Below, one piece after another: positions 10,336 through 25,102 of a DNA stretch of 41,808 nucleotides (positions are counted from its first letter, which is position 1; each line of letters begins with the position of its first letter). The notes under the pieces are model-generated. The model saw only the letters and a program-made list of their open reading frames with translations, was not told the DNA's origin and ran no database searches. This DNA is from a virus: the IMG/VR virus record IMGVR_UViG_3300027583_000001; one strand, given 5' to 3'. A program made the translations under genes and the position numbers.

Positions 10336-10373
10336 AATGCCCGCATGGGCAGCAATTGCATGGCTTCCTGAAT

Positions 10374-10715: not shown

Positions 10716-10723
10716 CGGAATGA

Positions 10724-12990: not shown

Positions 12991-13349
12991 GCAAACCCCG
13001 CTTCCTGCTTAGGCGTCCAATCACTCGGAATCACAGGGTCACTACCATCCCACTTGCCCCGCTTCATGCCGAATAGCTCGAGCATCGCCCCGCCGGCCAT
13101 CACAGCGCTTTGCGTCACTTCCTTGGGGTTGTCGAGCTTCGACTTGTCCAAGAGAAACCCGAACCCCTCGCGCTTGAGCTTGACCGACACATCCGCATTG
13201 ATCACGGCGTGCCGCACGATCATGGCCCCGCCTTGGAAGCTCACCTGCCACGGGTGATCGGGATAGGCTTTGTCCAACTGCTGCCATATCTCAAGCGCAA
13301 GTTGCAGGTAGCTTGATTCCTCCGGGTCACCGCGCTCGATGAGTTGCAT
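12987..13349 (-). CDS. Hypothetical protein (120 aa)
   Basis: Same-strand ORF, coupled at both ends. Confidence 0.65.
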   Translation of the reverse strand: MQLIERGDPEESSYLQLALEIWQQLDKAYPDHPWQVSFQGGAMIVRHAVINADVSVKLKREGFGFLLDKSKLDNPKEVTQSAVMAGGAMLELFGMKRGKWDGSDPVIPSDWTPKQEAGFA

Positions 13350-13579
13350 CAGGGGAAGCCGGTGTACTTCTGTTTGGGCGTTAACGTACCGGGTGGCCCA
13401 TAAATGCCCGTAAAGCTCATATCCGTCGAATCCATCGAGCGCCCGTTGCTAAAGTTATAAATGCGATGATCCGGCGCTCGAAAGCTCGAGCCCCACTCGC
13501 GGCTTGCCATCTCAAGCAGGCTGAACTGGCGCGTGGTGACTTGGTGGCCGAGGGTACTAGGGAGGGGGGGCAGTGCCAT
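13349..13579 (-). CDS. Hypothetical protein (76 aa)
   Basis: Same-strand ORF. Its stop shares one base with the next ATG (TGATG). Confidence 0.45.
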   Translation of the reverse strand: MALPPLPSTLGHQVTTRQFSLLEMASREWGSSFRAPDHRIYNFSNGRSMDSTDMSFTGIYGPPGTLTPKQKYTGFP

Positions 13580-13979
13580 GCAATCTCCTGCTGCGAGTCA
13601 TTAACGAGTACTTGTTGTTACACTCGCTGTGATATAGCTGCCTGCCGCCAGATAGCTTATCCAGCGGCTCCCATACCTTGCATATCCAGCACTTACGCCA
13701 GTCCGCATGACCGCACGCGTCCAACGCTTCTGTGCGCGTATGCAGCAATTTATGATAAGCCCGATCAGGGCAAACTACTAGGTTTTCGTGCCTGTTGTCA
13801 GCAGGATCGACGTTGACATGATGAATCTCTTCCGGAGACTTAAGACGCCGGCCTAAGACTTTTTCCACAATCCAGCGATGTTCTCCCCGCTTTTCGCCAT
13901 TGATTTGAATGTTGCGATGGCCTGTACCGCTAATCGTCCCAGTGCCTTTTTTGTTATAGATATTCCGGGACTTGCTCAT
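13557..13979 (-). CDS. HNH endonuclease adjacent to the large terminase
   Basis: 140 aa. HRWIVEKVLGRRL..EEIHHVNVDPADNRHENLVVCPDRAYHKLLH is a classic HNH core. Start overlaps the terL stop. Confidence 0.85.
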   Translation of the reverse strand: MSKSRNIYNKKGTGTISGTGHRNIQINGEKRGEHRWIVEKVLGRRLKSPEEIHHVNVDPADNRHENLVVCPDRAYHKLLHTRTEALDACGHADWRKCWICKVWEPLDKLSGGRQLYHSECNNKYSLMTRSRRLHGTAPPP

Positions 13980-15598
13980 ATGTAAGCGGGCTCCAAGTCA
14001 TCCTGATTTACAACCTGTGGAGTTACGGGCGACATATCGTAAATTCTTGATGCAGCATCAATTATATCGACTAACCCCCCGTAAGGGAAAAAAGAAACAC
14101 ATATTCTCAGCCGGTCTGCAACGTCATATCTCACGTTGTTTTCATCTTTCCTCGTGATAGGCCGCGCAATGCGGTATTCATAGCCCTGGGCCTTCATATT
14201 GGCCTGGATCTTGGTCAGCTTCTCATCGTCTGTCGGATATGGCAGGTAGAACCGATGGCCCTTGATGTCAGGCACTAAGCGCTGTACCCGGTCGTTCTTA
14301 CTGCGCTCACCGTCCCGCGGCCACTCGAGCGGCTCTATCTCGAAAGACGCACCTTCGATCCTTTGGCGCTCCTGGAAGTAATCAAGGTCCGCAATAGCAC
14401 CAAACCGCTCATAACCCACGTGCAAGCCCATCATTCCAGGCGCTGACTTCCACTTGAACCAAAGGTCTCGCATCCACCGCCAACGGTCCATCAGGTCCAT
14501 CTTGTGGTCTACGCCGTCCAAGAGGTACTTGTTTCCCGCCGCATCCACCCCTAAAACGACCATAGCCGTATTGGCTGAATCTCGCTTGACTGACCGCGCA
14601 GGATCGATCATGAGATAGCCCATCAGGGTTAAGGGGCGGACCTCGTAGACTTGGAGGTCTCGGACATCGAACATTCTCTGGTGACCCGCGAGCGGATTAG
14701 CAAGTAATTGACAAGCGACTGTGGCCTCACCTTGATCCCTGATTCTACGGGCCCACTCTGTTGCAGTGAACAGAACAGGCTTGCCATCCATTTGCCCGGT
14801 GTCTGTTGCTGGGTAAATGCGAGCTGTTGCAGCCCCGCGCTTAATGATTTCGGAGTAAGTATCCGCGTAGTGATAGCGAGTGCCAATGATCCATTTCCGG
14901 CCCCCCATTGTTCCAAGGTTGTCGGACAGCTCCCAAGCTTCTGTAGTCTTTGCAATCTGCTCTGGCGTATTGACTGATTCACGGGTCACCACATCGTCAT
15001 AAATCATCAGTTGGAAGTGCTTGGAGGTGGGCTGGCCGTCCACGAGTCCATGAGCTTCGATAGTGCTTTCTTTAGGGTTTCCATCTCGACGGCAGATGAG
15101 TCCAGCATCAAGTGACCAGCTACGGCTTTCCTTAGCTGGGTTAGCGAATAAGACATCGGGGAAGCAGGCTTTGAGGTTTTCATTGCTCTCTAGCTCCCGC
15201 TGGATCTGCGAGAGGAACCCCTTCGCGATCGGCTTGGTGTGGCTAAAGACGCCAATAGTGATTTCTCTGTCTCTGATAATTTGTTGAATGCATCCAGCAA
15301 AAGTGATGATTGTGCTTTTGTAATGCTCGCGCGCCCAGATGTCACAATACCCATCAGGTGCTCCCTCAACTTCCCGACAGCGCTGATACAGCCAAGGATG
15401 CCAAGCGTCATATCTTTTGAGGAGCTTGACGAGTAGGTAATATCGGTCATTGAGACCTAGCCAGCGTATCCCTGGAATGTCCTTGCCCTTGCCGTCGATC
15501 TCATCCCAAACGGCCAGAAGCTCATTGAACGGTGTTTCCCTGACGAAGGCTACGTAGCTTGTCCAATCGGGGGCTGAGGCCTTCGGCTTCTCCGACAT
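13976..15598 (-). CDS. terL: Terminase large subunit
   Basis: 540 aa. N-terminal HPWLYQRCREVEGAPDGYCDIWAREHYKSTIIT block and position upstream of the portal. Confidence 0.9.
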   Translation of the reverse strand: MSEKPKASAPDWTSYVAFVRETPFNELLAVWDEIDGKGKDIPGIRWLGLNDRYYLLVKLLKRYDAWHPWLYQRCREVEGAPDGYCDIWAREHYKSTIITFAGCIQQIIRDREITIGVFSHTKPIAKGFLSQIQRELESNENLKACFPDVLFANPAKESRSWSLDAGLICRRDGNPKESTIEAHGLVDGQPTSKHFQLMIYDDVVTRESVNTPEQIAKTTEAWELSDNLGTMGGRKWIIGTRYHYADTYSEIIKRGAATARIYPATDTGQMDGKPVLFTATEWARRIRDQGEATVACQLLANPLAGHQRMFDVRDLQVYEVRPLTLMGYLMIDPARSVKRDSANTAMVVLGVDAAGNKYLLDGVDHKMDLMDRWRWMRDLWFKWKSAPGMMGLHVGYERFGAIADLDYFQERQRIEGASFEIEPLEWPRDGERSKNDRVQRLVPDIKGHRFYLPYPTDDEKLTKIQANMKAQGYEYRIARPITRKDENNVRYDVADRLRICVSFFPYGGLVDIIDAASRIYDMSPVTPQVVNQDDLEPAYI

Positions 15599-15830
15599 TA
15601 ACGGTTAGCTCTTGCTCGATGAAGACGTGCTCACTGGGCTTACCATCGAGTCTACATGCGATCTCTCGGATGGCGTCCATGTCGCCGGATCCTGCTGCAC
15701 TGACCACTTTATCAGCGATGGGGTCGAGTCCAAGATCAACCGTTGTCCCCACGCGAGCGAGGGCCCGTCTAAGAGCTTCCTCCCATCGCTTACCTTTAGC
15801 TCCGTTCTTGTTGCCATGCGGTGCGGCCAT
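15522..15830 (-). CDS. terS: Terminase small subunit (putative)
   Basis: 102 aa. N-terminal PHGNKNGAKGKRW resembles small-terminase N-termini. Lies immediately upstream of terL, which it overlaps by 77 nt. Confidence 0.6.
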   Translation of the reverse strand: MAAPHGNKNGAKGKRWEEALRRALARVGTTVDLGLDPIADKVVSAAGSGDMDAIREIACRLDGKPSEHVFIEQELTVNVGEAEGLSPRLDKLRSLRQGNTVQ

Positions 15831-15881
15831 TGGCTCAACCGTTAAGTCTCTGACTCTAAATCAGAATCATTCTCATCTTGT

Positions 15882-16103
15882 TCAGGCATATACGGGATCA
15901 TTTTGCGACTCCAAATATCCTTTTTTACGCAACCTATGAAGCCTGACTCTCTCGGTTGAATAGCTATGTGCCATTGCTGAGCATCTGGCGGAACAATGCT
16001 TAGATGGTCTGCCACCCTGCTTGCCGATCTTGAACTCGAATGAGTTGCCGCAGTACGCGCATCGATGGTCTGGAATCCAATTAACAGGCCCAACATAGAT
16101 CAC
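15882..16103 (-). CDS. Zn-ribbon-like small protein (73 aa, GTG start)
   Basis: CAYCGNSFEF...GGRPSKHCSARC. GTGA-coupled to the upstream micro-ORF. Confidence 0.5.
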   Translation of the reverse strand: MIYVGPVNWIPDHRCAYCGNSFEFKIGKQGGRPSKHCSARCSAMAHSYSTERVRLHRLRKKGYLESQNDPVYA

Positions 16104-16222
16104 GAGCGCGTCTTCTTACCCGGCTTCTCGTATTTCATGGGCTTGTGCATTTTGGGCGTCTCCTGAGCGTTGTGCTTGGACTTAGCCGGGGGAGGGGCGT
16201 TGGGGACGGGCTTGTAGGTCAT
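16100..16222 (-). CDS. Micro-ORF, 40-aa basic Pro/Lys-rich peptide (MTYKPVPNAPPPAKSKHNAQETPKMHKPMKYEKPGKKTRS)
   Basis: Not in the track. ATGA- and GTGA-coupled at both ends, exactly filling the gap. Confidence 0.35.
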   Translation of the reverse strand: MTYKPVPNAPPPAKSKHNAQETPKMHKPMKYEKPGKKTRS

Positions 16223-16446
16223 GTGTCGCCACTGTAATTGTGATAACCCGAGTAACCGGTCAACGGCCCGTAACTGCGCTTTTTGGTGTATAGCTCGAGC
16301 CTGTGAGGCAGGTCTTTGTTGTTTCGATGCAGAATCGTGGCGTCAAGGTCGTAATCTCCCGAGACGTTCGGAACATCGTTCCAGCCTCGAGGCGCGCACT
16401 GATGGCAGCCCCCGTGAGCGATTCTATGCATTTGATTGGGCTTCAT
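16219..16446 (-). CDS. Hypothetical protein (75 aa)
   Basis: Same-strand ORF in a coupled chain. Confidence 0.5.
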   Translation of the reverse strand: MKPNQMHRIAHGGCHQCAPRGWNDVPNVSGDYDLDATILHRNNKDLPHRLELYTKKRSYGPLTGYSGYHNYSGDT

Positions 16447-16634
16447 GACTCGACTTTAGCACTATTGCGTTTATCTTCAAGCACTTTGCGCCAGGAATCT
16501 GGCATTTCGTTCATGACTTCCTTGCTGCCAAACCCGAAAGCATCACGTACCGTCTTGACCATCTGCCACTCTGCATTGACCTTCTGGAGGCTATATTCCG
16601 TGATCATGCCGGTATTTTCGGGGTAAACAGCCAC
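16443..16634 (-). CDS. Hypothetical protein (63 aa)
   Basis: Same-strand ORF in a coupled chain. Confidence 0.5.
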   Translation of the reverse strand: MAVYPENTGMITEYSLQKVNAEWQMVKTVRDAFGFGSKEVMNEMPDSWRKVLEDKRNSAKVES

Positions 16635-16851
16635 AACTGCGCGATCTAGAGCGCCCGCTCGTATTAAGCGAACCTGAGCGTATCACGCGCTGCTGTCCGC
16701 AAGCGCAACGACACACCCAGTACGCATGCCGGCCCGAATTGCCTTGTCTCGCTCGATACTTCGAGTAAAGCCCAAGCACCCGCCATCGCCCGATCTGGTG
16801 GCCGGTCAGATCCTTGATGCAGCGATTCGGCGGCCTAATCCCGGTCGTCAT
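16591..16851 (-). CDS. Small Cys-rich protein with the LTG..GRW.V...W.C.C.CG....SCGC pattern (86 aa from the ATG at 16851)
   Basis: DLTGHQIGRWRVLG...HAYWVCRCACGQQRVIRSGSL...SCGC is a widespread phage zinc-binding N-terminal pattern. GAGAGG lies 7 nt upstream of the 16851 ATG. Confidence 0.55.
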   Translation of the reverse strand: MTTGIRPPNRCIKDLTGHQIGRWRVLGLYSKYRARQGNSGRHAYWVCRCACGQQRVIRSGSLNTSGRSRSRSCGCLPRKYRHDHGI

Positions 16852-16954
16852 AGCGATTCCTCTCGTTAAACGGGAATTGATCAATAGCTGCTATCAAATA
16901 CCACACGATAACCCCCGCAATGACCATCAAAGCAATTCCCATGGCCAATTTCAT
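16835..16954 (-). CDS. Micro-ORF, 39-aa TM peptide (MKLAMGIALMVIAGVIVWYLIAAIDQF...)
   Basis: Not in the track. ATG overlaps the stop of the upstream endonuclease gene (ATGA). Confidence 0.35.
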   Translation of the reverse strand: MKLAMGIALMVIAGVIVWYLIAAIDQFPFNERNRYDDRD

Positions 16955-17283
16955 TTTTGCTCCTGCAATAGTCGTTTCAATCCCTCAATCGCTTCCCCGT
17001 TCCTCACCTGGGACGGCGTATAACGCAATACGCGCCATCCTGAGAGGATTAGCAGGTTATGCTTCCCCATGTCGCGGATGATGCCGAGCGGCCTGCTATG
17101 GGCTCCTGCGGCGAATATAGCGCCTTCTATCTCGATTCCCACCTTCTGTTTGGGAAAGGCGAGGTCTAAACGGTACTTTCGGCTCGGCTCAAATCGATAT
17201 TCCTGCTCGAACTCCAAAAGGCCATCCGCTAGGCATTGGTAGGCGAGAACCTGCTCTGCTTCGTTACCGATCGCCTTAAGCAT
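16951..17283 (-). CDS. Vsr/DUF559-like (restriction-endonuclease fold) endonuclease, 110 aa
   Basis: EQEYRFEPSRKYRLDLAFPKQKVGIEIEGAIF..GAHSRPLGIIRDMGKHNLLILSGWRVLRY. The ATG at 17283 shares one base with the stop of the upstream ORF. The A/R/P-rich N-terminal extension in the track ORF looks non-coding. Confidence 0.7.
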   Translation of the reverse strand: MLKAIGNEAEQVLAYQCLADGLLEFEQEYRFEPSRKYRLDLAFPKQKVGIEIEGAIFAAGAHSRPLGIIRDMGKHNLLILSGWRVLRYTPSQVRNGEAIEGLKRLLQEQK

Positions 17284-17492
17284 TATTCTGGCCTCATCAA
17301 CATCAAACTGCGACGATGAAGGAACCCAATGGCCCATCGACCAATGCGCAGAATCTTGCGATGGCCGTATCGCTCTGAGAATGAAGGCCGCATATCTCGA
17401 TTGAACGCCAACCCGTAGCCGAAAATACGAAAATAGAGCCCGCGTTCGTGCTTGACTAAAAACGTGGTTTTCATGCGGCGGGTGTAGCTCAT
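17283..17492 (-). CDS. Hypothetical protein (69 aa)
   Basis: Same-strand ORF, coupled. Confidence 0.5.
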   Translation of the reverse strand: MSYTRRMKTTFLVKHERGLYFRIFGYGLAFNRDMRPSFSERYGHRKILRIGRWAIGFLHRRSLMLMRPE

Positions 17493-17704
17493 TTCCCCTC
17501 TGTTTCAGTGGTTGTGCCGACCGGCCTGGTGGTATTGCCAAACAAGCCGGCGAAGGGATTCGTGCACATGACGCGGTCATGCTTGCTGGCGCACCGAGCG
17601 CACATCTCGGACCAGCGCCCACCGAGTATCGACATCTTCTCGATACCTGAAAAAGTCTTGCGGTCTTTGCTGCACCAATTGCAGCGCCGCCATCCGCCCT
17701 TCAC
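17489..17704 (-). CDS. Zn-ribbon small protein (71 aa, GTG start)
   Basis: CNWC...CARC pairs of Cys. Confidence 0.55.
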   Translation of the reverse strand: MKGGWRRCNWCSKDRKTFSGIEKMSILGGRWSEMCARCASKHDRVMCTNPFAGLFGNTTRPVGTTTETEGK

Positions 17705-17808
17705 TTGGCTGATCCTGGTTCAAAAGTACTCAGCAGCATCCCAATGGTGATCCCGAACGTGAAGCACGAGACACACGCCACAAGCCAAAATATTGTTCCA
17801 GCGTTCAT
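17701..17808 (-). CDS. Micro-ORF, 35-aa TM peptide (MNAGTIFWLVACVSCFTFGITIGMLLSTFEPGSAK)
   Basis: Not in the track. ATGA- and GTGA-coupled at both ends. Confidence 0.4.
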   Translation of the reverse strand: MNAGTIFWLVACVSCFTFGITIGMLLSTFEPGSAK

Positions 17809-18011
17809 TTCGACTGCCCTTCTGGATTAGACTGTTTCAGTTTCTCCGCCCACCGCACCGCATCACCCTTCGCTTCACCTAGCGTTTTAGCCCTACCGAT
17901 GAGCTTGAGGGCTTTAGGGTGGGTAAACCAAAGCTGATAGTCCGAGACTCCGCGGTGGATTCGATAGAAGCCGCTCTCGGTTACTCCGTCGCTTGTTTGT
18001 GTCCAGATCAT
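17805..18011 (-). CDS. Hypothetical protein (68 aa)
   Basis: GGAGG lies 4 nt upstream of the ATG at 18011. First gene downstream of the non-coding island. Confidence 0.6.
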   Translation of the reverse strand: MIWTQTSDGVTESGFYRIHRGVSDYQLWFTHPKALKLIGRAKTLGEAKGDAVRWAEKLKQSNPEGQSK

Positions 18012-18018
18012 GCGTCCT

Positions 18019-18048
18019 CCGTAACAGACCGTAACTATTGCGTAACAG
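18019..18048. promoter_or_regulatory. Three helically phased (C)CGTAAC(AG) repeats overlapping the SD of 17805..18011
   Basis: GTAAC at 18021, 18031 and 18042 (spacing 10 and 11 bp). CCGTAAC occurs twice and CGTAACAG twice. Confidence 0.4.
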
Positions 18049-18078
18049 CATCCTGAGTTTCCCTACGGGACTGCGCTG

Positions 18079-18093
18079 TTTTAATCATTAAAA
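18079..18093. promoter_or_regulatory. AT-only 7-1-7 palindrome TTTTAATcATTAAAA in an otherwise GC-rich genome
   Basis: The arms ttttaat and attaaaa are exact reverse complements. Followed by tattac. Confidence 0.35.
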
Positions 18094-18219
18094 TATTACT
18101 CCCATAGTCCGCCTTCCGCTTACCCACCCACCTCCTGTGGATACGCGCCCTAGGTCTAACCTGCTATACGGTAGATATCTCTCGGTCACCTGCTACTCCG
18201 TAGTAACTCAACCCCGAAA

Positions 18220-18585
18220 GACCATACCGAAAGATACTTTGAAGCAGGACCAAGGTTCAGCGGGAATCGAACCCTTAACCTCTGACACCAGTCAGATGCC
18301 CTGATCCTGCTCGAAATACCCTTCGGTATGAAGTCCACCCTATCCCCCACCGGGTTAGCGGTTAGGAGGCGCTCGGAATCCTCATCTGCGAATGAGGCAA
18401 GTTCGCGGCACCAGACTTGCTGGCTATTCCGAGTTCTGTGACAGCAGCCCTCGGGCGGCCCATAGTCTCTCTCGCGGTCAAGCGGCAATTTCAAACGGGG
18501 GTAATTGACTGTAATGGCAGAACGCTTTACAGTTACATCCGTTCTTCTTCGCACGTAGAACATAAACCCAACTCCCTTGGTCGTC
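18220..18585. ncRNA. Candidate structured RNA (class and strand unresolved)
   Basis: No credible CDS. Nested long-range helices: 18223-18231 cataccgaa / 18322-18330 ttcggtatg; 18243-18249 agcagga / 18305-18311 tcctgct; 18372-18379 ctcggaat / 18426-18433 attccgag. Local hairpins at 18281-18296, 18380-18397, 18411-18423, 18508-18533 and 18541-18561. Confidence 0.4.
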
Positions 18586-18618
18586 AAGCCCCCTTTTCAG
18601 GGGGTTTTGGCGTTTTGG
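18586..18618 (+). terminator. Intrinsic terminator oriented for the plus strand
   Basis: aagccccc-ttttca-gggggtttt then ggcgtttt: GC stem plus T-run on the plus strand. The reverse complement has no T-run. Confidence 0.6.
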
Positions 18619-18624
18619 GGGTCA

Positions 18625-18650
18625 TAAAAAAGCCCCCAGTGAGGGGGCTT
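18625..18650 (-). terminator. Intrinsic terminator for minus-strand gene 18670..19308
   Basis: The minus strand reads AGCCCCC-tcact-GGGGGCT followed by TTTTTTAT, about 20 nt after the stop. Confidence 0.8.
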
Positions 18651-18669
18651 CATTGTTCCCGCGGGAACT

Positions 18670-19308
18670 TTACGCGGCTTTCTTCCTCCGCTCGTGCTGC
18701 GGCAGATCATCCAAGATATGCTGCAATCTCGCCATGCACTCCTCTACCGCTGCTCTCGCCTGATCCGGGTCTTCATCGACCCACGTCATAACGCGCTTCT
18801 CCACCTTCGATAGCGCAGCCATGACCAATTCCATTTTCGGGGCTTCTGGTTGCTTAGCCAGAGCGAAGGTCCGTAAGGCCGTCTTCGTGACAGTCAATAC
18901 GCTGAGGCTTCGCACATCCCCGCCGGCCTTGATGTAACTCTGCAGCGTACTTGCCGCTGATCGGGCAAAGTTCGCCCGACCATTCCTCACTCCCGCTCGA
19001 GCGCGTCGCTCATCAACGCTCAAAAGCTCGTCGTCCTTTACATCGTCACTCGTGACACCTCGTAACACCGCGTGGTAATATGTCGTGTGGATCTCATGCA
19101 CATATTCACTGTGGCTGTGCAGATCGGTGTCTTTCAGCTTGCGCTTACCCGGAAATTTCGCCTGTAGCGAGGCGATTAAGATCCGAAGGTAAGCACCGTC
19201 TACCCGCTTCGCTCCTTCTGAACAGGCGCGATAGTTGACGGCGAGTAATTCAACATCATGCTCATCCGCGAGATAATGAGCTTTTTCAACCTTGTCGATA
19301 GTCTCCAT
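18670..19308 (-). CDS. Hypothetical early protein (212 aa from METIDKVEK)
   Basis: GGAGAAACCC precedes the ATG at 19308. The protein looks all-helical. It is the largest early-left gene, with no motif recognised. Confidence 0.65.
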   Translation of the reverse strand: METIDKVEKAHYLADEHDVELLAVNYRACSEGAKRVDGAYLRILIASLQAKFPGKRKLKDTDLHSHSEYVHEIHTTYYHAVLRGVTSDDVKDDELLSVDERRARAGVRNGRANFARSAASTLQSYIKAGGDVRSLSVLTVTKTALRTFALAKQPEAPKMELVMAALSKVEKRVMTWVDEDPDQARAAVEECMARLQHILDDLPQHERRKKAA

Positions 19309-19348
19309 GGGTTTCTCCAGAACTTGAGTTCTCGAACAATCAACGTCC

Positions 19349-19552
19349 CTATCCTGTATCCATAGCATCACCTCCTGTTAGCGACTGACTCACGCACTCC
19401 GGTGCTGTATGTGTGACGACACCCGCCTTTGTGTAACGGTTAACCGGCATCCGATCGTTATCTGAGACGACGACCCGCGTTGCATTGCAACGGGAACAGC
19501 GCGACTTCGTGACGTGCGGATAACGCTCGACGAGTACCCAACTATGCCGCAT
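19349..19552 (-). CDS. Hypothetical small protein (67 aa) with CSRC...C
   Basis: Same-strand ORF downstream of the XRE gene. Confidence 0.45.
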   Translation of the reverse strand: MRHSWVLVERYPHVTKSRCSRCNATRVVVSDNDRMPVNRYTKAGVVTHTAPECVSQSLTGGDAMDTG

Positions 19553-19621
19553 CGCGCAATACCGTATACCAATAGAACGCGATCTCCTGACAGATGAGTT
19601 CCGTCAGGTCAATATCCACGA

Positions 19622-19801
19622 TCACGTCAGCTCGGACTCTTTGCACCCGAGGGCCTGACTGATTCGCGTTAATGTGTTCGGTCTCGGTACTGTCCATCCT
19701 TTTTCCCATTTCGATACGTTGGCCTGACTGGTTCTAAGTGCTGCCGCGAGGGCTGTTTGTGACAACCCGCGCTTTTTTCGTATCGAAGCTAACTTTTTCA
19801 T
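19622..19801 (-). CDS. XRE-family (Cro/CI-type) helix-turn-helix regulator, 59 aa
   Basis: Not in the track (59 aa). Hand translation: MKKLASIRKKRGLSQTALAAALRTSQANVSKWEKGWTVPRPNTLTRISQALGCKESELT, a textbook HTH_3 pattern (RGLSQ..LA..L..S...VS.WE.G...P....L..I...L). Confidence 0.8.
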   Translation of the reverse strand: MKKLASIRKKRGLSQTALAAALRTSQANVSKWEKGWTVPRPNTLTRISQALGCKESELT

Positions 19802-19865
19802 GAAGTAGAGTATTACATAGCTAAATACCTATTGCAAATGCTATAGCACTGTGTATATTGCAGTC
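19802..19865. promoter_or_regulatory. Divergent early control region with two back-to-back sigma70-like promoters sharing one palindromic -35 hexamer
   Basis: TTGCAA (19832-19837) is its own reverse complement. Plus side: 16-nt spacer, then TATATT (19854-19859), with the ATG 7 nt later. Minus side: 17-nt spacer, then AATACT (complement of 19809-19814), with the ATG 8 nt later. Neither ATG has an SD. The palindromes tagcta (19818-19823) and gctatagc (19840-19847) sit in the two spacers. Confidence 0.55.
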
Positions 19866-19964
19866 ATGGACATTTACAGCAAGCAAGAGCGCACTACCCT
19901 ATGGGTGATCAAGGGATTGATGGGGCTGTTTGTGGTGGCGACAATCATGGAGTTTTGCGTATGA
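19866..19964 (+). CDS. Micro-ORF, 32-aa TM peptide (MDIYSKQERTTLWVIKGLMGLFVVATIMEFCV)
   Basis: First ATG after the plus-strand promoter. Its TGA overlaps the next ATG (ATGA). Confidence 0.3.
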   Translation: MDIYSKQERTTLWVIKGLMGLFVVATIMEFCV

Positions 19965-20197
19965 ACTTAGCCGGTCGTATGGCGCGCTGTGGTTGCGGTA
20001 AGACTGTCGCGTCGTCACCTGACATCGCTTTCTTTGAGTTTACTGGCGACGGCTCGGCAGAGGCCGCTGATATCTGCAAATGCGGCTATCACAAAATAGC
20101 CCATAGGCCAGATTTCAAGCAGGCATGCCGCGAGTTCACGGCCAAAGGGCCACAAGCGATTGACCGTTACTACTGTGGTTGCAGAGGATGGGATTGA
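19961..20197 (+). CDS. Cys-rich small early protein (78 aa from MNLAGRMARCGCGK)
   Basis: Same frame as track ORF 19901..20197. The ATG at 19961 is coupled to the upstream micro-ORF. Contains CGCG...CKCGYH...CGC. Confidence 0.55.
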   Translation: MNLAGRMARCGCGKTVASSPDIAFFEFTGDGSAEAADICKCGYHKIAHRPDFKQACREFTAKGPQAIDRYYCGCRGWD

Positions 20198-20198
20198 C

Positions 20199-20330
20199 AT
20201 GGACGACGAAGACTTCAACGAGCTAGATCAGCTCGACATTGACGAAATGCTGGCAGACGAAGAGCGCCATGATGCGGCGATTCTGAATCTCGCCCTCCAA
20301 AGTTTAGCCTTAGTGGGAGATATAGAATGA
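20199..20330 (+). CDS. Highly acidic 43-aa early protein (MDDEDFNELDQLDIDEMLADEERHDAAILNLALQSLALVGDIE)
   Basis: Not in the track. Starts 2 nt after the previous stop, and its TGA overlaps the next ATG. It has 15 Asp/Glu against 1 Arg. Confidence 0.5.
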   Translation: MDDEDFNELDQLDIDEMLADEERHDAAILNLALQSLALVGDIE

Positions 20331-20515
20331 AATACCGATTGATACATGACCATGCATCCTTGATGCAACCTTGGTTTCGCATCGAGCAGTTTAGGGATAA
20401 TCGATGGGCTCTCGTCGATAGCGGAATGAACGAAAATCATCTGCGCCAACGCTTTCAAAATCTGATCGACGGCACGCCGGAATTCACGGTCCTCGAAGAG
20501 GCGGAAAGCGCATGA
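20327..20515 (+). CDS. Hypothetical early protein (62 aa)
   Basis: Coupled ORF. Confidence 0.6.
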   Translation: MKYRLIHDHASLMQPWFRIEQFRDNRWALVDSGMNENHLRQRFQNLIDGTPEFTVLEEAESA

Positions 20516-20787
20516 GCATCTTTTTCATGTTCCTTGTGATCATGCTCAGTGCCTGCCTTGCCGTGATCATTGCTGAGTTCCTAACCCGATGGTGGGATGA
20601 CCGGCAAGAGGCAAAAGCCTTATTGCTGCGGGATATCAGAGTCAAGGATGAGCTAATCACGCGATTGAACTTGCAGGTTGCCCAGCTTACGGCAAGGGCT
20701 CACATGCTGGAGTACGCTTTAGCAACGAAGACTAAGCGGGGGCTGTATTTGGCTGAAGCCCCCGCTTTGTTACGTAAGCAAATATGA
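20512..20787 (+). CDS. Hypothetical membrane-anchored coiled-coil protein (91 aa)
   Basis: N-terminal TM segment IFFMFLVIMLSACLAVIIAEF, then a helical region. Confidence 0.65.
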   Translation: MSIFFMFLVIMLSACLAVIIAEFLTRWWDDRQEAKALLLRDIRVKDELITRLNLQVAQLTARAHMLEYALATKTKRGLYLAEAPALLRKQI

Positions 20788-21284
20788 ATGACACCATAGA
20801 CGCGTGGTGGCATCACCAGGACAGCCTGGATTGGCAGCGTCACATTCAAGTAGTAGCAGAGTTCAACACGTACTTACACGAAGAGGGTTACATGAAAGTT
20901 AAAGATATGATCGAAAGCAAGTACCTGCGCAAAGAGGACTTCGACGAAGACGCCATTTGCACCATCAAGGGGCTGAAACTCGAAAACTTGGGCAAAGATG
21001 ACAAGGTAGAGGAACGCTGGATCATCTACTTTCGCGAACAGGCGAAAGGGATGGTTTTGAACATCACCAGCATTCGCGTACTGGAATCGGCCTTTGGGGA
21101 TGAGTCGGATAACTGGGTTGGCAAAAAAGTGACGGTCTACGTAGACCCGAACGTGAGCTTCCAGGGCCGGGTCGTCGGTGGATTGAGACTTCGGCCCATG
21201 AAGCCATCGAAAGCCGATGCAGTGCGTCCTGGGACGGCTCAGGAAACGGTTACACCTGAACTCGATGATGACCTCCCATTCTGA
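20784..21284 (+). CDS. SSB-like protein with a canonical SSB C-terminal tip (…PELDDDLPF)
   Basis: 166 aa. The last residues, DDDLPF, match the bacterial SSB tip DDDIPF. The preceding P/A/T-rich linker and beta-rich core (WIIYFREQAKGMVLNITS...KKVTVYVDPNVSFQGRVVGGLRLRP) are compatible with an OB fold. Confidence 0.6.
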   Translation: MNDTIDAWWHHQDSLDWQRHIQVVAEFNTYLHEEGYMKVKDMIESKYLRKEDFDEDAICTIKGLKLENLGKDDKVEERWIIYFREQAKGMVLNITSIRVLESAFGDESDNWVGKKVTVYVDPNVSFQGRVVGGLRLRPMKPSKADAVRPGTAQETVTPELDDDLPF

Positions 21285-21553
21285 TGGCTAAAGTCACTGA
21301 CATGATCGGTGACTATGCAGACCCCCGAGGCGACTCGGGGCGTTCTGTGGATGAAGAACGCGCGATTCAATTAGCCGGCGAGATGCGCCAGATATTGAAC
21401 CGCGATCTAGAGGAAGTGGATATAGCGCTTGAGGCGTATTTGTATAACTGTCAGGTGGATCAGGACGAAATGATTGCGGCTTGGGATCACTTGAATGCTA
21501 TGGAAAGACGTGCTTGGCGTGAATACGTAAGGATCGGAAAAAATGCTAATTGA
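21284..21553 (+). CDS. Hypothetical early protein (89 aa)
   Basis: Coupled ORF (TGATG). Confidence 0.65.
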   Translation: MAKVTDMIGDYADPRGDSGRSVDEERAIQLAGEMRQILNRDLEEVDIALEAYLYNCQVDQDEMIAAWDHLNAMERRAWREYVRIGKNAN

Positions 21554-21869
21554 TGATGAACGACTCGAAACTGCGTTAAAGCGTTTGGCAAAGTCCGATG
21601 CGCTGGTAGCCGAGTTGCACATGAAAGCCGAGCGCGCCGAGTTCAAAGCGAAAGCAACGAAGGACGCAATATTCCTACGCAGCGAAGGAAACGTAGCGGA
21701 AAGGAACGCGCTGGCTGGCATTCACGAGGACTATGCTAAGGCTATGGATGATTACTTCACGGCTTTGCAGGCCCATGACACGCTCAAGAACGAACGCAGC
21801 CGGGAAGTGATCATTATCGAATGCTGGCGGTCGATGAATTCCACCCGCAATAAGGGGCTGATTACGTGA
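21543..21869 (+). CDS. Hypothetical early protein (108 aa, helical)
   Basis: Coupled ORF. Confidence 0.65.
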   Translation: MLIDDERLETALKRLAKSDALVAELHMKAERAEFKAKATKDAIFLRSEGNVAERNALAGIHEDYAKAMDDYFTALQAHDTLKNERSREVIIIECWRSMNSTRNKGLIT

Positions 21870-22198
21870 GCAGCCGCGACCTTAAACGCTATGAAGCCTT
21901 ACGCGAACTGGGGTGCATTGCTTGTCATCACGAACGGGGAGCCGCTCACATCCTGCCGGCTGAAGTCCATCATTTGGTGGATAAGGGCTATCGGAAGCAT
22001 TCAGGCGGTAACCAGGCAACAATCCCGCTATGCCATTGGCACCACCGCGGCGAACCGATCATGAATCATTCTGTCACTTGGATGCGTGGCATGTTTGGCC
22101 CCTCGATGTTCCATGAATCAAAGGAATTCGCCAGAGTGTATGGCAGTCAGCGCGAACTGTTGGCGAAGGTTAACGAACTGATTAAGGGTATCCCCTAG
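21866..22198 (+). CDS. Ref-family (P1 Ref-like, RecA-dependent) HNH-type nuclease
   Basis: 110 aa. LGCIACHH...PAEVHHLV...IPLCHWHHRG...FARVYGSQRELLAKVNELI matches the Ref/recombination-enhancement pattern (GC..C, P.E.HH, PLC..HHRG). Confidence 0.8.
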   Translation: MSSRDLKRYEALRELGCIACHHERGAAHILPAEVHHLVDKGYRKHSGGNQATIPLCHWHHRGEPIMNHSVTWMRGMFGPSMFHESKEFARVYGSQRELLAKVNELIKGIP

Positions 22199-22255
22199 TG
22201 CATTTTCAGGGTGCAATTGTCAGCCGCTTAGGCACAATGACCCTACGACTTAAGG

Positions 22256-22282
22256 CCGTGCCGAGTCGAAAAATAGGCACGG
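22256..22282 (+). other. 7-bp GC-rich hairpin between the Ref-like gene and the PASTA gene
   Basis: ccgtgcc-13 nt-ggcacgg. No T-run follows. Confidence 0.4.
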
Positions 22283-22312
22283 TAATAAGACTAACTACAA
22301 AGGGAAATTGAC

Positions 22313-22921
22313 ATGAAGGCTCTATTTCTGGCTCTGCTTTTGACCGGTACCGCATCCGCTTTGAACCTACCGATACCGCCCGGCTACCCAATTCTGCTCG
22401 GGAGGTCATGCGGCAGCGTCTTCGTTGCCTCATACATTGAGGGTTTCGACACGGCCGGCAACGTCCACGGAGAGTTGAGGGCATCCACTCGATGTCCCAC
22501 GAGCGGGCGCGGGGGTGGCTCGATTACTTACACGTCATACCACGCCATCACCTGGGACTTCTTTGGCGGCTATGTGTTGAGCGCCTATGACGGCGGAGCG
22601 TTGAATCCCGCTGAAGTTGCCGTCGATGCCTACGGTAACGTGGCACAAGTCGTGAACAACGTACCGACGCTAACGCTCAATTACCTGCCGCCCACCGCAA
22701 AACACATCGCGGCCATCGTTCCGGTGACAGCCGGAAAAGCGCAGGCAATCGCGACGGCGCAATTAACGGCCTTGGGATTCGTGCCGAGCATTACCTACGT
22801 CTATACCGGGACGGCGCCCGCAGGGTCGGTGCTGTACACAACTCCCGCGGCGGGACTCATGGAGCCGGTAGGCGCCGCGATACAAGTCGTCGTCTCTCTA
22901 GGCGGCGGAAACAACGACTAG
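22313..22921 (+). CDS. Secreted protein with a C-terminal PASTA domain
   Basis: 202 aa. Sec signal MKALFLALLLTGTASA-LN. C-terminal VPVTAGKAQAIATAQLTALGFVPSITYVYTGTAPAGSVLYTTPAAGLMEPVGAAIQVVVSLG fits the PASTA consensus (vP.v.G....A...L...Gf.......G.V....P.aG......g..v.l.vS.G). Confidence 0.7.
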   Translation: MKALFLALLLTGTASALNLPIPPGYPILLGRSCGSVFVASYIEGFDTAGNVHGELRASTRCPTSGRGGGSITYTSYHAITWDFFGGYVLSAYDGGALNPAEVAVDAYGNVAQVVNNVPTLTLNYLPPTAKHIAAIVPVTAGKAQAIATAQLTALGFVPSITYVYTGTAPAGSVLYTTPAAGLMEPVGAAIQVVVSLGGGNND

Positions 22922-22927
22922 ATCAGC

Positions 22928-22953
22928 GCAGCGGGACGGCACACCGCTGCTTT
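22928..22953 (+). terminator. Hairpin with a short T-run after the PASTA gene (weak intrinsic terminator)
   Basis: gcagcgg-9 nt-ccgctgc followed by tttg. Confidence 0.4.
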
Positions 22954-22978
22954 GATAAGGGAAAAGAGGAGAAGTCTA

Positions 22979-23284
22979 ATGGCTAGTATGACGTTCAAGG
23001 GGAAGGCGGCGGCCGCCGTTCTGGATGCGCTCAGCAATCCACCCAAGCCCACCAAGGCCGAGCGCGTGGCTAAGGAGCTATGTGATGCCGCCGAGGCGTT
23101 CCAAGACGCAGCGAACCAATTGTGGTGGGCACAGAATCCTGATGAGCGCGACGGCGTACCACCGAGCGAGGAACACGCTATGGAGGTTCATAGCGAGCGC
23201 TTTCAACACTTGACGGCCAGTATCTACGAAGTTCGGAAGGCGTTTGGCTTTCCTACTGCAAAGACAGGAAACGACAATGGTTAA
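22979..23284 (+). CDS. Hypothetical early protein (101 aa from MASMTFKG)
   Basis: AGGAG lies 8 nt upstream of the ATG at 22979. The track start at 22952 is TTG. Confidence 0.6.
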   Translation: MASMTFKGKAAAAVLDALSNPPKPTKAERVAKELCDAAEAFQDAANQLWWAQNPDERDGVPPSEEHAMEVHSERFQHLTASIYEVRKAFGFPTAKTGNDNG

Positions 23285-23549
23285 GCGATACGGCCCATGG
23301 AAGGATCGCGGCGGTTGGTCCAGCGCAATGGACGAGGAAAAAGATGGTGCCTACGTCAAGCATTCCGACTACGCGAAACTTGAGGCCGAATTGCGTGACG
23401 CCGTTGTGTTGCTCGCGACGGCCAACCCAGGCGAGGATTTGCCGGATCAAGAGAGCGCCGATTTGTGGTGTACCGCAGTATCAAAGTTTCTGCTCAAGCA
23501 CGAGCACTTGGTGATATATGCGCAAAGACAAGGAAGGGACAATGGCTGA
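23277..23549 (+). CDS. Hypothetical early protein, SDY-motif family member a (90 aa from MVKRYGPW)
   Basis: Conserved junction GGAAACGACAATGG. Contains DGAYVKHSDYAKLEAELRDA. Confidence 0.55.
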   Translation: MVKRYGPWKDRGGWSSAMDEEKDGAYVKHSDYAKLEAELRDAVVLLATANPGEDLPDQESADLWCTAVSKFLLKHEHLVIYAQRQGRDNG

Positions 23550-24575: not shown

Positions 24576-24602
24576 CTCGCAAGCCAATCCAGGAGCAGCC
24601 AA

Positions 24603-25098: not shown

Positions 25099-25102
25099 AG
25101 TG

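What the first reader, a model, noticed from the sequence alone, without database searches (positions are those of the whole stretch)
18220..18585. ORF-poor, helix-dense island in the early-left region: candidate large structured RNA
Between minus-strand genes ending at 18670 and starting at 18011 lie about 650 bp with no credible CDS. The only long ORF (18186..18587) starts with TTG and is full of AGG/AGA/CGA Arg codons. I can pair several exact long-range complements. 18223-18231 pairs with 18322-18330 (9 bp). Enclosed within that, 18243-18249 pairs with 18305-18311 (7 bp). Those two enclose a 6-bp/tetraloop hairpin (18281-18296) and a GGTT...AACC stem (18254-18280) capped by GGG-aatcgaa-CCC. 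Further on, 18372-18379 pairs with 18426-18433 (8 bp), enclosing hairpins at 18380-18397 and 18411-18423. More hairpins lie at 18508-18533, 18541-18561 and 18567-18581. On the minus strand the capped stem reads GGGTTCGATTCCC, a T-loop-like motif. On the plus strand the island ends in a plus-oriented intrinsic terminator, although all flanking genes are on the minus strand. Large ornate RNAs of unknown function (the ROOL and GOLLD classes) are known to reside in phages, so this deserves a covariance test. The strand is unresolved: one G-T extension favours plus, while the T-loop favours minus.
Basis: seen in the sequence. Interest (0 to 1): 0.75.

Follow-up and report, generated by a model that had tools for sequence, protein, structure and literature searches.

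The report
New large structured phage RNA
The gene-free island in this soil phage genome encodes a conserved, intricately folded RNA of about 450 bases and a small antisense RNA facing it; neither matches any catalogued RNA family, and what they do is unknown.

Summary

- **Not a protein.** Translating the only long ORF and searching 1.84 billion proteins gave 11 look-alikes. Their similarity is at the nucleotide level: it crosses a stop codon and a frameshift, and one T-loop is read in three different frames.
- **Conserved RNA.** DNA from four other phage contigs aligns over about 485 nt (78% identity), although the flanking genes differ.
- **Promoter and extent.** A promoter, TTGACG-N17-TATGTT, is essentially invariant. 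It predicts a minus-strand RNA at about 18552-18104.
- **Structure.** The consensus fold has 119 pairs in 20 helices. Thirty-six pairs show compensatory changes, against 16±2.7 in shuffles and 3-7 in slid controls.
- **Strand.** G·U outnumbers A·C 74 to 11, and the consensus energy is -121 against -89 kcal/mol. Both point to the minus strand.
- **Antisense RNA.** A second conserved promoter faces the first. It predicts a plus-strand RNA of about 77 nt (18540-18616) with three covarying hairpins. This explains the plus-oriented terminator.
- **No known family.** Rfam 15, ARAGORN and the phage, plasmid and E. coli collections gave no match.
- **T-loop hairpin.** It is an optional apex, absent in two of five members.
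- **Context.** Close relatives lack the cassette. One carries a replication-initiator gene in the same slot.

Function is inferred only.

The parts
18104..18552 (-). Large structured RNA, about 450 nt. The 5' end is predicted from the conserved promoter. The 3' limit is where conservation stops (GGCGGACUAU).
   Evidence: Five-locus alignments A4 and A5, 78% mean identity. RNAalifold gives 119 pairs in 20 helices, 36 with compensatory changes. nhmmer E-values are 1e-125 to 1e-140 in L043-L046.
18559..18587 (-). Promoter of the large RNA: -35 TTGACG (18587-18582), 17-nt spacer, -10 TATGTT (18564-18559).
   Evidence: Found by the consensus scan. The -35 hexamer is invariant in all five loci. The -10 hexamer is identical in four, and L046 has a 1-nt insertion giving TAGTGT.
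18494..18543 (-). 5' hairpin domain of the large RNA (helices H1 and H2). The antisense promoter lies inside it.
   Evidence: H1 has 3 of 6 and H2 has 4 of 9 pairs with compensatory changes. Coordinates.
18109..18485 (-). Core of the large RNA. It is closed by long-range helices H3/H4 (18485-18474 with 18119-18109). It contains H7/H8 (18454-18429), H9 (18424-18410), H10/H11 (18409-18371), H12/H13 (18369-18344), H14 (18343-18334 with 18175-18166), H18/H19 (18222-18177) and H20 (18145-18123).
   Evidence: In H11, five of the seven stem pairs (all but the two end pairs) covary and the loop UCGCAG is invariant. H7, H9, H12, H13, H18 and H19 also carry compensatory changes.
18223..18330 (-). Long hairpin H15. 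The basal 16-bp stem is conserved and covaries. The apex (about 18314-18239) is variable. In the window it holds a 14-bp extension, the hairpin UCUGAC-UGGU-GUCAGA and the T-loop-like hairpin GGG-UUCGAUU-CCC (18274-18262).
   Evidence: MFE -57.2 kcal/mol, z = -6.87, on the minus strand. The basal stem has compensatory changes in L044. The apex is present in the window, L043 and L046, and is deleted or replaced in L044 and L045.
18505..18533 (+). Promoter of the small antisense RNA: -35 TTGACT (18505-18510), 17-nt spacer, -10 TACAGT (18528-18533).
   Evidence: Found by the consensus scan. Conserved as TTGACN-N17-TAnnGT in all five loci, read from A5 columns 22-50.
18540..18616 (+). Small antisense RNA, about 77 nt, both ends predicted. 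It has three hairpins: 18541-18561, 18568-18580, and the terminator 18582-18612 followed by UUUU at 18613-18616. Its 3' hairpin contains the complement of the sense -35 element. It overlaps the first 13 nt or so of the large RNA.
   Evidence: Alignment A6 gives 22 consensus pairs, 9 with compensatory changes. The wobble pairs fit the plus strand. There is a weak architectural match to Rfam RNAI: 25.9 bits against a gathering score of 47, local E = 0.016.
18624..18652 (-). Intrinsic terminator of the upstream 212-aa gene. It marks the upstream boundary of the cassette.
   Evidence: Terminator scan. Homology to the close relative L015 ends at about 18655.
18012..18103 (-). Non-conserved spacer between the RNA and the 68-aa gene. 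It contains an AT-rich stretch, three CGTAAC repeats and the gene's Shine-Dalgarno sequence. Position 18012 is the downstream boundary of the cassette.
   Evidence: Conservation stops at 18104. Homology to L020 resumes exactly at 18012. Repeats.

Best explanation
The island is a self-contained RNA cassette carried by a small group of soil phages. The window phage was binned with an Acidobacteriota MAG.

**Shown by the data**
- A conserved sigma-70-type promoter on the minus strand lies directly upstream of a conserved region of about 450 nt.
- That region folds into about 20 helices with abundant compensatory changes. It comprises a 5' hairpin domain, a multi-helix core closed by a long-range helix that pairs its two ends, and an optional apex with a T-loop module.
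- A second conserved promoter faces the first. The predicted start sites lie about 12-13 bp apart.
- Downstream of the second promoter lie three covarying hairpins, the last of them a terminator. Together they predict a plus-strand RNA of about 77 nt.
- The ORF across the region is not a gene.

**Inferred, not shown**
- Both transcripts and their ends are predictions from the promoters. No transcript has been observed.
- The two promoters are too close to be occupied at once, so they would act as a competitive switch. The antisense transcript would occlude the sense promoter and could also pair with the first 13 nt or so of the sense RNA.
- When the sense promoter fires, the large RNA would fold as it is made and transcription would continue into the downstream genes.
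- I think the large RNA most likely works in trans. It would be a stable, compact RNA, alone or with protein, acting on a conserved host machine, in the way proposed for other large ornate phage RNAs. I put the trans-acting part at about 0.4.
For: **Nucleotide-level rather than protein-level conservation**
- The 11 translated look-alikes share a near-invariant core, with flanks rich in indels. Similarity continues past the window's stop codon in another frame. The T-loop is read as RVRFP, GFESP or VVGSNPS in different hits.
- Variable columns are spread evenly over codon positions: 58/101, 54/104 and 59/102, p = 0.63. Gap lengths are not multiples of three.
- Codon log-odds for the ORF is -0.13 bits per codon, in the range of the spurious ORFs.

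**Structure**
- 93.7% of cells are paired, against 84.2±0.8 in shuffles and 36-44% in slid controls.
- 36 pairs have double changes, against 16±2.7 in shuffles and 3-7 in slid controls. Eleven of 20 helices covary.

**Strand**
- Searches agree on the minus strand.

**Antisense unit**
-.

**Independence from neighbours**
- Flanking genes differ between the five loci.
- There is one copy per locus.
- The close relatives L015 and L020 lack the cassette, with homology breaking at about 18655 and at 18012.

**Support for a stable folded RNA**
- A 5'-3' closing helix, invariant loops and junctions, and much higher conservation than the surrounding proteins.
Against: - No transcript data exist. Both start sites and both RNA ends are predictions.
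- There are only five DNA sequences, and they are related (78% identity). One of them, L044, shows frameshifts in its protein genes that I attribute to long-read assembly errors.
- The family was found through ORF translations, so the sample is biased towards members with an open frame.
- No terminator follows the large RNA. In L044 and L045 a protein gene starts about 25-35 nt after it. This fits a cis-acting leader at least as well as a trans-acting RNA, and a trans-acting RNA would need processing.
- Helices H3, H4, H14 and H20 show only invariant pairs or one-sided changes.
- Nothing in the data identifies a molecular target.
Confidence: 0.6

Rival explanations
1. Cis-acting operon leader. 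The 450-nt RNA stays attached to the transcript and controls the downstream genes. It could modify RNA polymerase for processive read-through, as the put RNAs of phage HK022 do, or it could protect or gate the mRNA. The antisense promoter would switch the operon off.
For: - The RNA starts at the promoter.
- No terminator separates it from the next gene on the same strand.
- In the window the downstream operon runs into the terminase and structural genes.
- In L044 and L045 a gene begins about 25-35 nt after the RNA.
Against: - The downstream genes are unrelated between loci: a 68-aa protein in the window, a different small protein in L044 and L045, and a nuclease-like gene further on.
- No intrinsic terminators that would need bypassing were found on the minus strand at 13000-18000.
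- From my own knowledge, put is about 70 nt and the Bacillus eps-associated RNA (EAR) about 120 nt. Both are far smaller and simpler than 20 helices.
Confidence: 0.2
2. RNA-primed replication origin that depends on host enzymes, with countertranscript control, working like ColE1 RNA II and RNA I. The large RNA would form a persistent hybrid with the template through its invariant G-rich 3' end and prime DNA synthesis. The small antisense RNA would set the initiation frequency.
For: - In the close relative L015 the same slot holds a 295-aa protein that matches PHROG primosomal and replication-initiation families, E = 8e-10 and 1.5e-8.
- In L006, L009 and 9 of 10 IMG/VR relatives, a primase-polymerase/helicase gene lies 1-4 kb downstream of the 212-aa homolog.
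- The complete 41,709-bp genome has no recognisable replication protein by Pfam, PHROGs or tblastn.
- The antisense RNA has three hairpins and a weak RNAI match.
- The 3' end GGUGGGUGGGGAAGCGGAAGGCGGAC is invariant and purine-rich, and AT-rich DNA follows it.
Against: - The predicted overlap between the sense and antisense RNAs is only about 13 nt. From my own knowledge, RNA I is complementary to RNA II along its whole length.
- The RNAI score is far below the gathering score (25.9 against 47 bits).
- The G-rich 3' end is predicted to be paired within the folded RNA (H3, H4, H20).
- Protein genes follow directly on the same strand.
- L020 has a third, unrelated ORF in the slot, so position alone does not imply replication.
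- Many ORFs in the genome have no assigned function, so a novel replication protein cannot be excluded.
Confidence: 0.15
3. A real protein-coding gene: the 125-aa (or 133-aa) ORF at 18563-18186 on the minus strand. It has a Shine-Dalgarno-like AAGGGAG 8 nt upstream and was called as a gene in two public assemblies.
For: - The gene is called in L001 and L002.
- There are 11 translated homologs with E-values down to 1.6e-22.
- One frame is open for more than 100 codons in all five loci.
Against: - There is no third-position excess of substitutions (p = 0.63), and indels are not multiples of three.
- Similarity continues across the stop codon in another frame, and the same nucleotides are read in three frames in different hits.
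- Codon usage resembles the spurious ORFs.
- There is no Pfam or PHROG match.
- The ATG lies inside the conserved -10 hexamer, upstream of the predicted transcription start.
- The open frames are expected from the way the family was found.
Confidence: 0.02
4. A tRNA-derived sequence: an attP core copying the 3' half of a host tRNA, a decayed phage tRNA gene, or a tRNA or tmRNA mimic such as a YrlA-type Y RNA.
For: - GGGUUCGAUUCCC on the minus strand is a canonical T-loop sequence.
- There is a weak tRNA-Sec hit, E = 1.5.
- The same T-loop is conserved in L043 and L046.
Against: - ARAGORN finds no tRNA or tmRNA.
- The T-stem has only 3 bp.
- The 21-mer from the T-loop through the would-be acceptor strand has no match in 185,579 species genomes.
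- No integrase was found.
- There is no Y RNA (YrlA) or tmRNA match in Rfam.
- The module is absent in two of five family members.
- The motif GTTCRANNC is not enriched in the window.
Confidence: 0.02
5. A type I toxin-antitoxin locus of the hok/sok kind: a structured toxin mRNA with 5'-3' fold-back, plus a small antisense antitoxin RNA.
For: - There is a sense/antisense pair, the sense RNA is about 400-450 nt, and a long-range closing helix pairs the two ends of its core.
Against: - No small hydrophobic ORF is conserved. The only ORFs with a shared start have variable ends and are not hydrophobic.
- No Rfam toxin-antitoxin RNA family matches.
- The antisense RNA mostly overlaps the promoter, not a ribosome-binding site.
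Confidence: 0.03

Closest known systems
ROOL and GOLLD (large ornate RNAs of phages and prophages; PMC5737381, PMC12286853)
   Same: - Phage-borne.
- Several hundred nucleotides long.
- Many helices supported by covariation.
- Invariant loops and junctions.
- No known biochemical function.
- This is the best analogy for the kind of object.
   Different: - Neither covariance model matches, even at E<=10.
- It is shorter, at about 450 nt.
- No tRNA gene is present in the window.
- It is coupled to a conserved face-to-face antisense RNA.
- It has been seen only in soil metagenome phage contigs and not in IMG/VR.
ColE1 RNA II / RNA I primer and countertranscript
   Same: - A long untranslated structured RNA from a sigma-70-type promoter.
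- A small three-hairpin antisense RNA ending in a terminator.
- It occupies the place of a replication gene in a genome with no recognisable initiator.
- Its 3' segment is G-rich.
   Different: - The predicted overlap is only about 13 nt.
- RNAI scores 25.9 bits against a gathering score of 47.
- There is no sequence similarity in 72,556 plasmids.
- Priming has not been tested.
Face-to-face promoter switches with a small antisense RNA (IS10 pIN/pOUT and RNA-OUT; coliphage 186 pR/pL; P2 Pe/Pc). This comparison rests on my own knowledge.
   Same: - Two convergent promoters sit close enough to interfere with each other.
- The small RNA is a stable hairpin RNA.
   Different: - Here one arm produces a 450-nt structured RNA rather than an mRNA for a transposase or repressor.
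- Each promoter carries a covarying hairpin within its spacer.
tRNA T-arm and T-loop modules in large RNAs
   Same: - The apex hairpin GGG-UUCGAUU-CCC has the T-loop consensus.
- It is conserved in three members.
   Different: - The stem has 3 bp.
- There is no acceptor stem or CCA end.
- It is dispensable in two members.
- It is more likely a tertiary-contact module than a tRNA mimic. This is an inference.

Membership tests
ROOL / GOLLD / OLE / HEARO / raiA and every other Rfam 15 family | Match to the family covariance model at or above its gathering score | tested here: not met
   - No match at gathering threshold in the whole window.
- Only chance-level hits at E<=10 in 17950-18750.
- Nothing in the four homologous loci at E<=1 apart from one unrelated snoRNA hit.
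tRNA / tmRNA | Cloverleaf or tRNA-like domain with acceptor stem, detectable by ARAGORN; T-arm with a 5-bp stem | tested here: not met
   - ARAGORN finds 0 genes in the window.
- The T-stem has 3 bp.
- No tmRNA family matches in Rfam.
attP core in a tRNA gene | Sequence identity to the 3' part of a host tRNA gene | tested here: not met
   GGGTTCGATTCCCGCTGAACC has 0 matches in 185,579 species genomes. Host genomes absent from that set cannot be excluded.
attP core in a tRNA gene | An integrase gene in the phage, usually adjacent | tested here: not met
   No integrase or recombinase domain in about 40 ORFs scanned with Pfam.
ColE1-type replicon | RNA I recognisable by the Rfam RNAI model | tested here: not met
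   25.9 bits against a gathering score of 47. Local E = 0.016 for an 801-nt search only.
ColE1-type replicon | Antisense RNA complementary over its whole length to the 5' part of the primer RNA | tested here: not met
   With the predicted start sites (about 18552 minus, about 18540 plus) the overlap is about 13 nt. The start sites are predictions, not measurements.
ColE1-type replicon | No element-encoded initiator; replication relies on host enzymes | tested here: inconclusive
   No replication protein was recognised in the complete genome, but many ORFs have no assigned function.
ColE1-type replicon | Persistent RNA-DNA hybrid, RNase H cleavage and priming of DNA synthesis | not testable with these tools
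   Needs experiments.
Protein-coding gene | Substitutions concentrated at third codon positions; indels in multiples of three; reading frame kept across homologs | tested here: not met
   - Variable columns by codon position are 58/101, 54/104 and 59/102, p = 0.63.
- Gap runs are 1, 2, 8, 22 and 30 nt.
- Frame changes occur between conserved blocks.
Type I toxin-antitoxin (hok/sok-like) | Conserved small hydrophobic toxin ORF in the sense RNA | tested here: not met
   No such ORF is shared by the five loci.
Bacterial Y RNA (YrlA) | Rfam model match; association with an Rsr/Ro (TROVE) gene | tested here: not met
   No Rfam hit. No TROVE domain in the ORFs scanned.
Structured non-coding RNA (general) | Base pairs kept through compensatory changes beyond control levels; strand-specific wobble pairs | tested here: met
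   - 36 of 119 pairs have double changes, against 16±2.7 in shuffles (0 of 500 reach it) and 3-7 in slid controls.
- G·U 74 cells against A·C 11.
- Consensus energy is -121.4 kcal/mol for the sense strand and -89.4 for the antisense strand.

The most novel reading that the evidence does not exclude
The cassette is a replication module made only of RNA. The 450-nt transcript would be a primer or origin RNA, and the 77-nt countertranscript would set its firing rate. On this reading it stands in for the initiator or primase-helicase genes that relatives carry at this position, in a phage with no replication protein of its own. I know of no phage described with a ColE1-style origin.
Probability: 0.15. 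Interest if true: 0.85.

Novelty: new variant of a known kind. Interest (0 to 1): 0.72.

Why it matters
**Rarity.** Bacterial and phage RNAs longer than about 400 nt with complex conserved folds are few. Apart from rRNA, RNase P RNA, tmRNA and the self-splicing introns, the well-known classes are OLE, GOLLD, ROOL and HEARO. Each has opened a line of work; cryo-EM recently showed OLE, ROOL and GOLLD as RNA-only assemblies (PMC12286853).

**What this case offers.**
- Clear covariation from only five sequences.
- A promoter that defines the predicted 5' end.
- A built-in antisense partner.
- A natural contrast: close relatives lack the cassette, and one carries a replication-initiator gene in its place.

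**What follows from it.**
- It gives a starting alignment for a covariance model that could be used to search soil metagenomes.
- It gives concrete constructs for structural and genetic tests.
- It shows a practical way to find such RNAs. Spurious ORF translations can be used as handles to pull nucleotide-conserved RNAs out of very large protein databases.

Tried and rejected
**Searches that found nothing**
1. Nucleotide searches with the island against 50,697 phage records, 72,556 plasmids and 20,395 E. coli records gave no match. Megablast of 10000-30000 against the phage records also gave none.
2. Anchoring on the neighbours. The 212-aa gene has 42 homologs, and 30 loci of relatives were fetched (L004-L011, L021-L042). 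None contains the island by blastn, nhmmer or a covariance model of the hairpin. The 68-aa gene has 3 homologs (L015-L020), and they also lack it. This first suggested an orphan element.
3. The word-indexed protein search with the ORF found only the ORF itself. The exhaustive phmmer search then found the family.
4. IMG/VR scans found no family member. These used a 27-mer, a 19-mer, a 22-mer with degenerate positions, and patterns back-translated from the family alignment. The three 19-mer hits were two tRNA-Gly genes and one lone T-arm.
5. The genome collection gave no hit for the tRNA-like 21-mer and no relative of the 212-aa protein.
6. One family member (P0054) could not be used because its contigs have no DNA on file.

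**Ideas considered and dropped**
- attP or tRNA remnant.
- Y RNA.
- Retron or diversity-generating retroelement RNA: no reverse transcriptase domain was seen in the scanned ORFs.
- CRISPR-like or toxin-antitoxin repeats: no repeat arrays.
- Group I or II intron: no Rfam hit and no conserved GUGYG 5' end.
- RNase III site only: this does not explain 450 nt of conservation.
- Kissing between the antisense loop CUCCC and GGGAG motifs near the RNA's 3' end: not consistent across the five loci.
Full report
**1. The observation**

The window is a complete phage genome from a circular assembly. Its first 99 bases repeat exactly at its end, giving a unit of 41,709 bp. Three independent public assemblies of about 41.8 kb carry the island with 100% identity. 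One protein of this phage is recorded in NCBI from a MAG labelled Candidatus Acidoferrales, phylum Acidobacteriota.

Between the minus-strand gene ending at 18670 and the one starting at 18011 lie 658 nt.

Folding energies beat dinucleotide shuffles for the whole island, with z = -4.2 on the plus strand and -4.9 on the minus strand. Taken piece by piece, only 18218-18334 is exceptional. On the minus strand it gives -57.2 kcal/mol and z = -6.9; on the plus strand z = -5.4. The three other pieces score z between +0.3 and -1.1.

The T-loop-like motif is not enriched in the genome: 17 copies against 12.3 expected.

**2. First round: an apparent orphan**

Four lines of search came back empty.
- ARAGORN found nothing.
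- Rfam 15 found nothing at gathering threshold and only noise at E<=10.
- The island matches nothing in the phage, plasmid or E. coli collections.
- Thirty loci of relatives, found through the neighbouring 212-aa protein, hold nothing similar. Neither do the relatives found through the 68-aa protein. This was tested by blastn, nhmmer and a covariance model of the hairpin.

The close relatives were still informative.
- L015 aligns at 81-87% nucleotide identity on both sides. Homology breaks at about 18655 and resumes inside the 68-aa gene.
- L020, 96% identical in the 68-aa gene, breaks exactly at 18012.
- In L015 the slot holds a 295-aa ORF that matches PHROG primosomal and replication-initiation families.
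- In L020 an unrelated ORF abuts the 68-aa gene.

The island is therefore an exchangeable cassette.

**3. The turn: the ORF as a handle**

The public gene callers had called a 125-aa ORF (18563-18186, minus) in two assemblies. A word-indexed search found only the ORF itself. An exhaustive phmmer search of 1.84 billion representatives found 11 more sequences, with E-values from 1.6e-22 to 7e-4.

Their alignment does not look like a protein family.
- A near-invariant core of about 36 residues is flanked by indel-rich regions.
- A second conserved block continues, in the window, past the stop codon and in another frame.
- The T-loop nucleotides are translated as RVRFP or RVRLP, as GFESP, or as VVGSNPS in different hits.

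DNA could be fetched for four of them: L043, L044, L045 and L046. All sit in phage contexts, with ERF or RecT operons nearby.

The five DNA sequences align over about 485 nt at 78% mean identity, although the flanking genes differ.
- Variable columns are spread evenly over codon positions (58/101, 54/104, 59/102; p = 0.63).
- Gap lengths are 1, 2, 8, 22 and 30 nt.
- Codon usage of the ORF resembles the spurious ORFs.

The ORF is not a gene.

**4. The large RNA**

The alignment starts with a promoter, CTTGACG, then 17 nt, then TATGTT. In the window these lie at 18588-18582 and 18564-18559. The -35 is invariant in all five loci. The -10 is identical in four, and L046 has a 1-nt insertion. This places the predicted start near 18552 on the minus strand. 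Conservation stops abruptly after GGCGGACUAU at 18104.

RNAalifold predicts 119 pairs in 20 helices, and 36 pairs carry compensatory double changes. Counting with controls gave the following.

| Measure | Observed | Shuffles | Slid partners |
|---|---|---|---|
| Cells forming a standard pair | 93.7% | 84.2±0.8% | 36-44% |
| Pairs with double changes | 36 | 16±2.7 | 3-7 |

None of 500 shuffles reached the observed value on any of the five measures. Eleven of 20 helices covary. The clearest is the hairpin at 18397-18380: five of its seven stem pairs change in concert, while the two end pairs and the loop UCGCAG never change.

The strand is the minus strand.
- G·U outnumbers A·C by 74 cells to 11.
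- The consensus energy is -121.4 kcal/mol with a covariation term of -7.5. The opposite strand gives -89.4 and -2.4.

The architecture:
- a 5' hairpin domain (18543-18494);
- a core closed by a long-range helix (18485-18474 with 18119-18109);
- five hairpins, at 18454-18429, 18424-18410, 18409-18371, 18369-18344 and 18145-18123;
- a sub-domain closed by 18343-18334 with 18175-18166, which holds the long hairpin (18330-18223) and the hairpin 18222-18177.

L044 has ACCUAAUGGUCUU/AGGAUCAUUAGGU where the window has ACCGAAGGGUAUU/AGUAUCUUUCGGU. Its apex, with the T-loop, is present only in the window, L043 and L046. It is deleted or replaced in L044 and L045.

Helices H7 and H10 replace it in the consensus: H7 covaries, while H10 is invariant and so neither supports nor contradicts the fold.

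**5. The small antisense RNA**

Inside the 5' hairpin domain, on the plus strand, all five loci keep TTGACN, then 17 nt, then TAnnGT. In the window these are at 18505-18510 and 18528-18533. The predicted start is near 18540.

Downstream on that strand lie three hairpins: 18541-18561, 18568-18580 and 18582-18612, followed by a short U run. Nine of their 22 pairs carry compensatory changes, and their wobble pairs fit the plus strand.

The first two hairpins lie in and upstream of the sense promoter, so they cannot be part of the large RNA. Rfam's RNAI model gives a weak architectural match: 25.9 bits against a gathering score of 47.

The two predicted start sites face each other 12-13 bp apart.

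**6. What it most likely is and does**

*Shown:* a conserved, strand-specific, covarying region of about 450 nt lying directly downstream of a conserved promoter, and a conserved covarying antisense unit with its own promoter and terminator. Both form a cassette that moves independently of its neighbours. Neither transcript has been observed; both are predictions from the promoters.

*Inferred:*
- Two polymerases cannot occupy promoters this close together, so the pair should behave as a competitive switch.
- The large RNA has features typical of stable RNAs that act through a compact fold: a helix pairing the two ends of its core, long invariant single-stranded stretches, an optional T-loop module, and conservation far above that of nearby proteins.
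- I therefore favour a trans-acting structured RNA of the ROOL/GOLLD kind, at about 0.4.

Two rivals stay open.
- **Cis-acting leader (about 0.2).** No terminator follows the RNA, and in L044 and L045 a gene starts 25-35 nt after it.
- **RNA-primed origin in the ColE1 manner (about 0.15).** Relatives carry an initiator or a primase-polymerase/helicase at this place. The complete genome shows no replication protein. The 3' end is invariant and G-rich. Against this reading, the antisense overlap is only about 13 nt, the G-rich end is paired in the fold, and L020 shows that the slot is not always a replication slot.

These readings are rejected: protein gene, attP or tRNA remnant, tmRNA, Y RNA, and type I toxin-antitoxin.

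**7. Comparison and novelty**

It works most like the large ornate phage RNAs and, in layout, like countertranscript systems. It is a member of none of them: every membership test that could be run failed. I found nothing matching it in two targeted literature searches; a survey of candidate structured RNAs in viruses and phages (PMC10690425) came up but I did not read it. The family is absent from IMG/VR by four pattern scans. I rate it as a new family within a known kind of object, with an unusual coupled antisense unit.

**8. Caveats**
- There are five related sequences, and one of them (L044) shows frameshifted protein genes, which I attribute to long-read assembly errors.
- The family was ascertained through open reading frames.
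- All transcript ends are predicted.
- The host is unknown apart from one MAG label.

Noticed in passing
window 1-99 and 41710-41808: An exact 99-nt terminal repeat. The window is a circular assembly of a complete genome of 41,709 bp.
   Followed up: yes
window 18020-18048: Three direct repeats of CGTAAC(AG), spaced 10-11 nt apart, lie just upstream of the Shine-Dalgarno sequence and ATG of the 68-aa gene. This may be a protein-binding or operator site. It is not conserved in the other RNA-bearing loci.
   Followed up: partly
L015:428-1315 (JGI 3300086438, Ga0683331_0241427): A close relative of the window phage carries a 295-aa ORF matching PHROG primosomal and replication-initiation families, exactly where the window has the RNA cassette. 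L020 has yet another ORF there. The slot between the 212-aa and 68-aa genes is a hot spot for module exchange.
   Followed up: yes
window, whole genome: Pfam, PHROGs and tblastn (with the relatives' proteins as queries) recognised no integrase, polymerase, primase, helicase or replication initiator. Most relatives carry a primase-polymerase/helicase gene (NrS-1 HBD plus DUF5906 domains).
   Followed up: partly
window 3284-3838(-), 13557-13979(-), 16951-17283(-): Three nuclease genes of the homing-endonuclease type: GIY-YIG with NUMOD3; HNH next to the large terminase; and a DUF559/Vsr-like protein (weak Pfam match below cutoff, PHROG family of unknown function).
   Followed up: no
window 26133-27515(+), 34710-36032(-), 40640-41227(-), 2257-3306(-): Unusual auxiliary genes for a 42-kb phage: glycosyl hydrolase family 71, an ATP-grasp (GARS-like) protein, an Asp/Arg beta-hydroxylase and a family 9 glycosyltransferase. 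A GH71-like gene also lies just downstream of the RNA in L044.
   Followed up: no
window 22881-23000(-), 21241-21440 (both strands), 20681-20840(+): Other 120-nt windows with strong folding z-scores (-5.7; -4.2 to -5.0; -4.4) in the early-right operon. The inverted repeat at 20731-20770 looks like a terminator.
   Followed up: no
window 19622-19801(-) against the public gene call at 19542-19697(-): An ORF with a clear Cro/CI-type HTH_3 domain (E = 2e-14) overlaps a 51-aa gene called in the public annotation. The public call is probably wrong.
   Followed up: no
L012:9973-9990 (IMGVR_UViG_3300034403_000144): A lone perfect T-arm, GCGGGTTCGATTCCCGC, follows a terminator and a promoter-like site in an unrelated viral contig. 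ARAGORN finds no tRNA there. It may be a tRNA fragment or an att site.
   Followed up: partly
L044:6755-9557: The GH71-like, VRR-NUC-like and glycosyltransferase-like genes are broken by frameshifts, and the region looks gene-poor. I attribute this to long-read assembly errors (the contig name ends in np1212). Small indels of L044 within the RNA alignment should be treated with caution.
   Followed up: partly
L045:5404-5949: In one RNA-bearing phage the gene directly upstream of the cassette has a weak precomputed hit to the RNA ligase family RLIG1 (PF17720). The neighbouring genes at the other loci do not share it.
   Followed up: no
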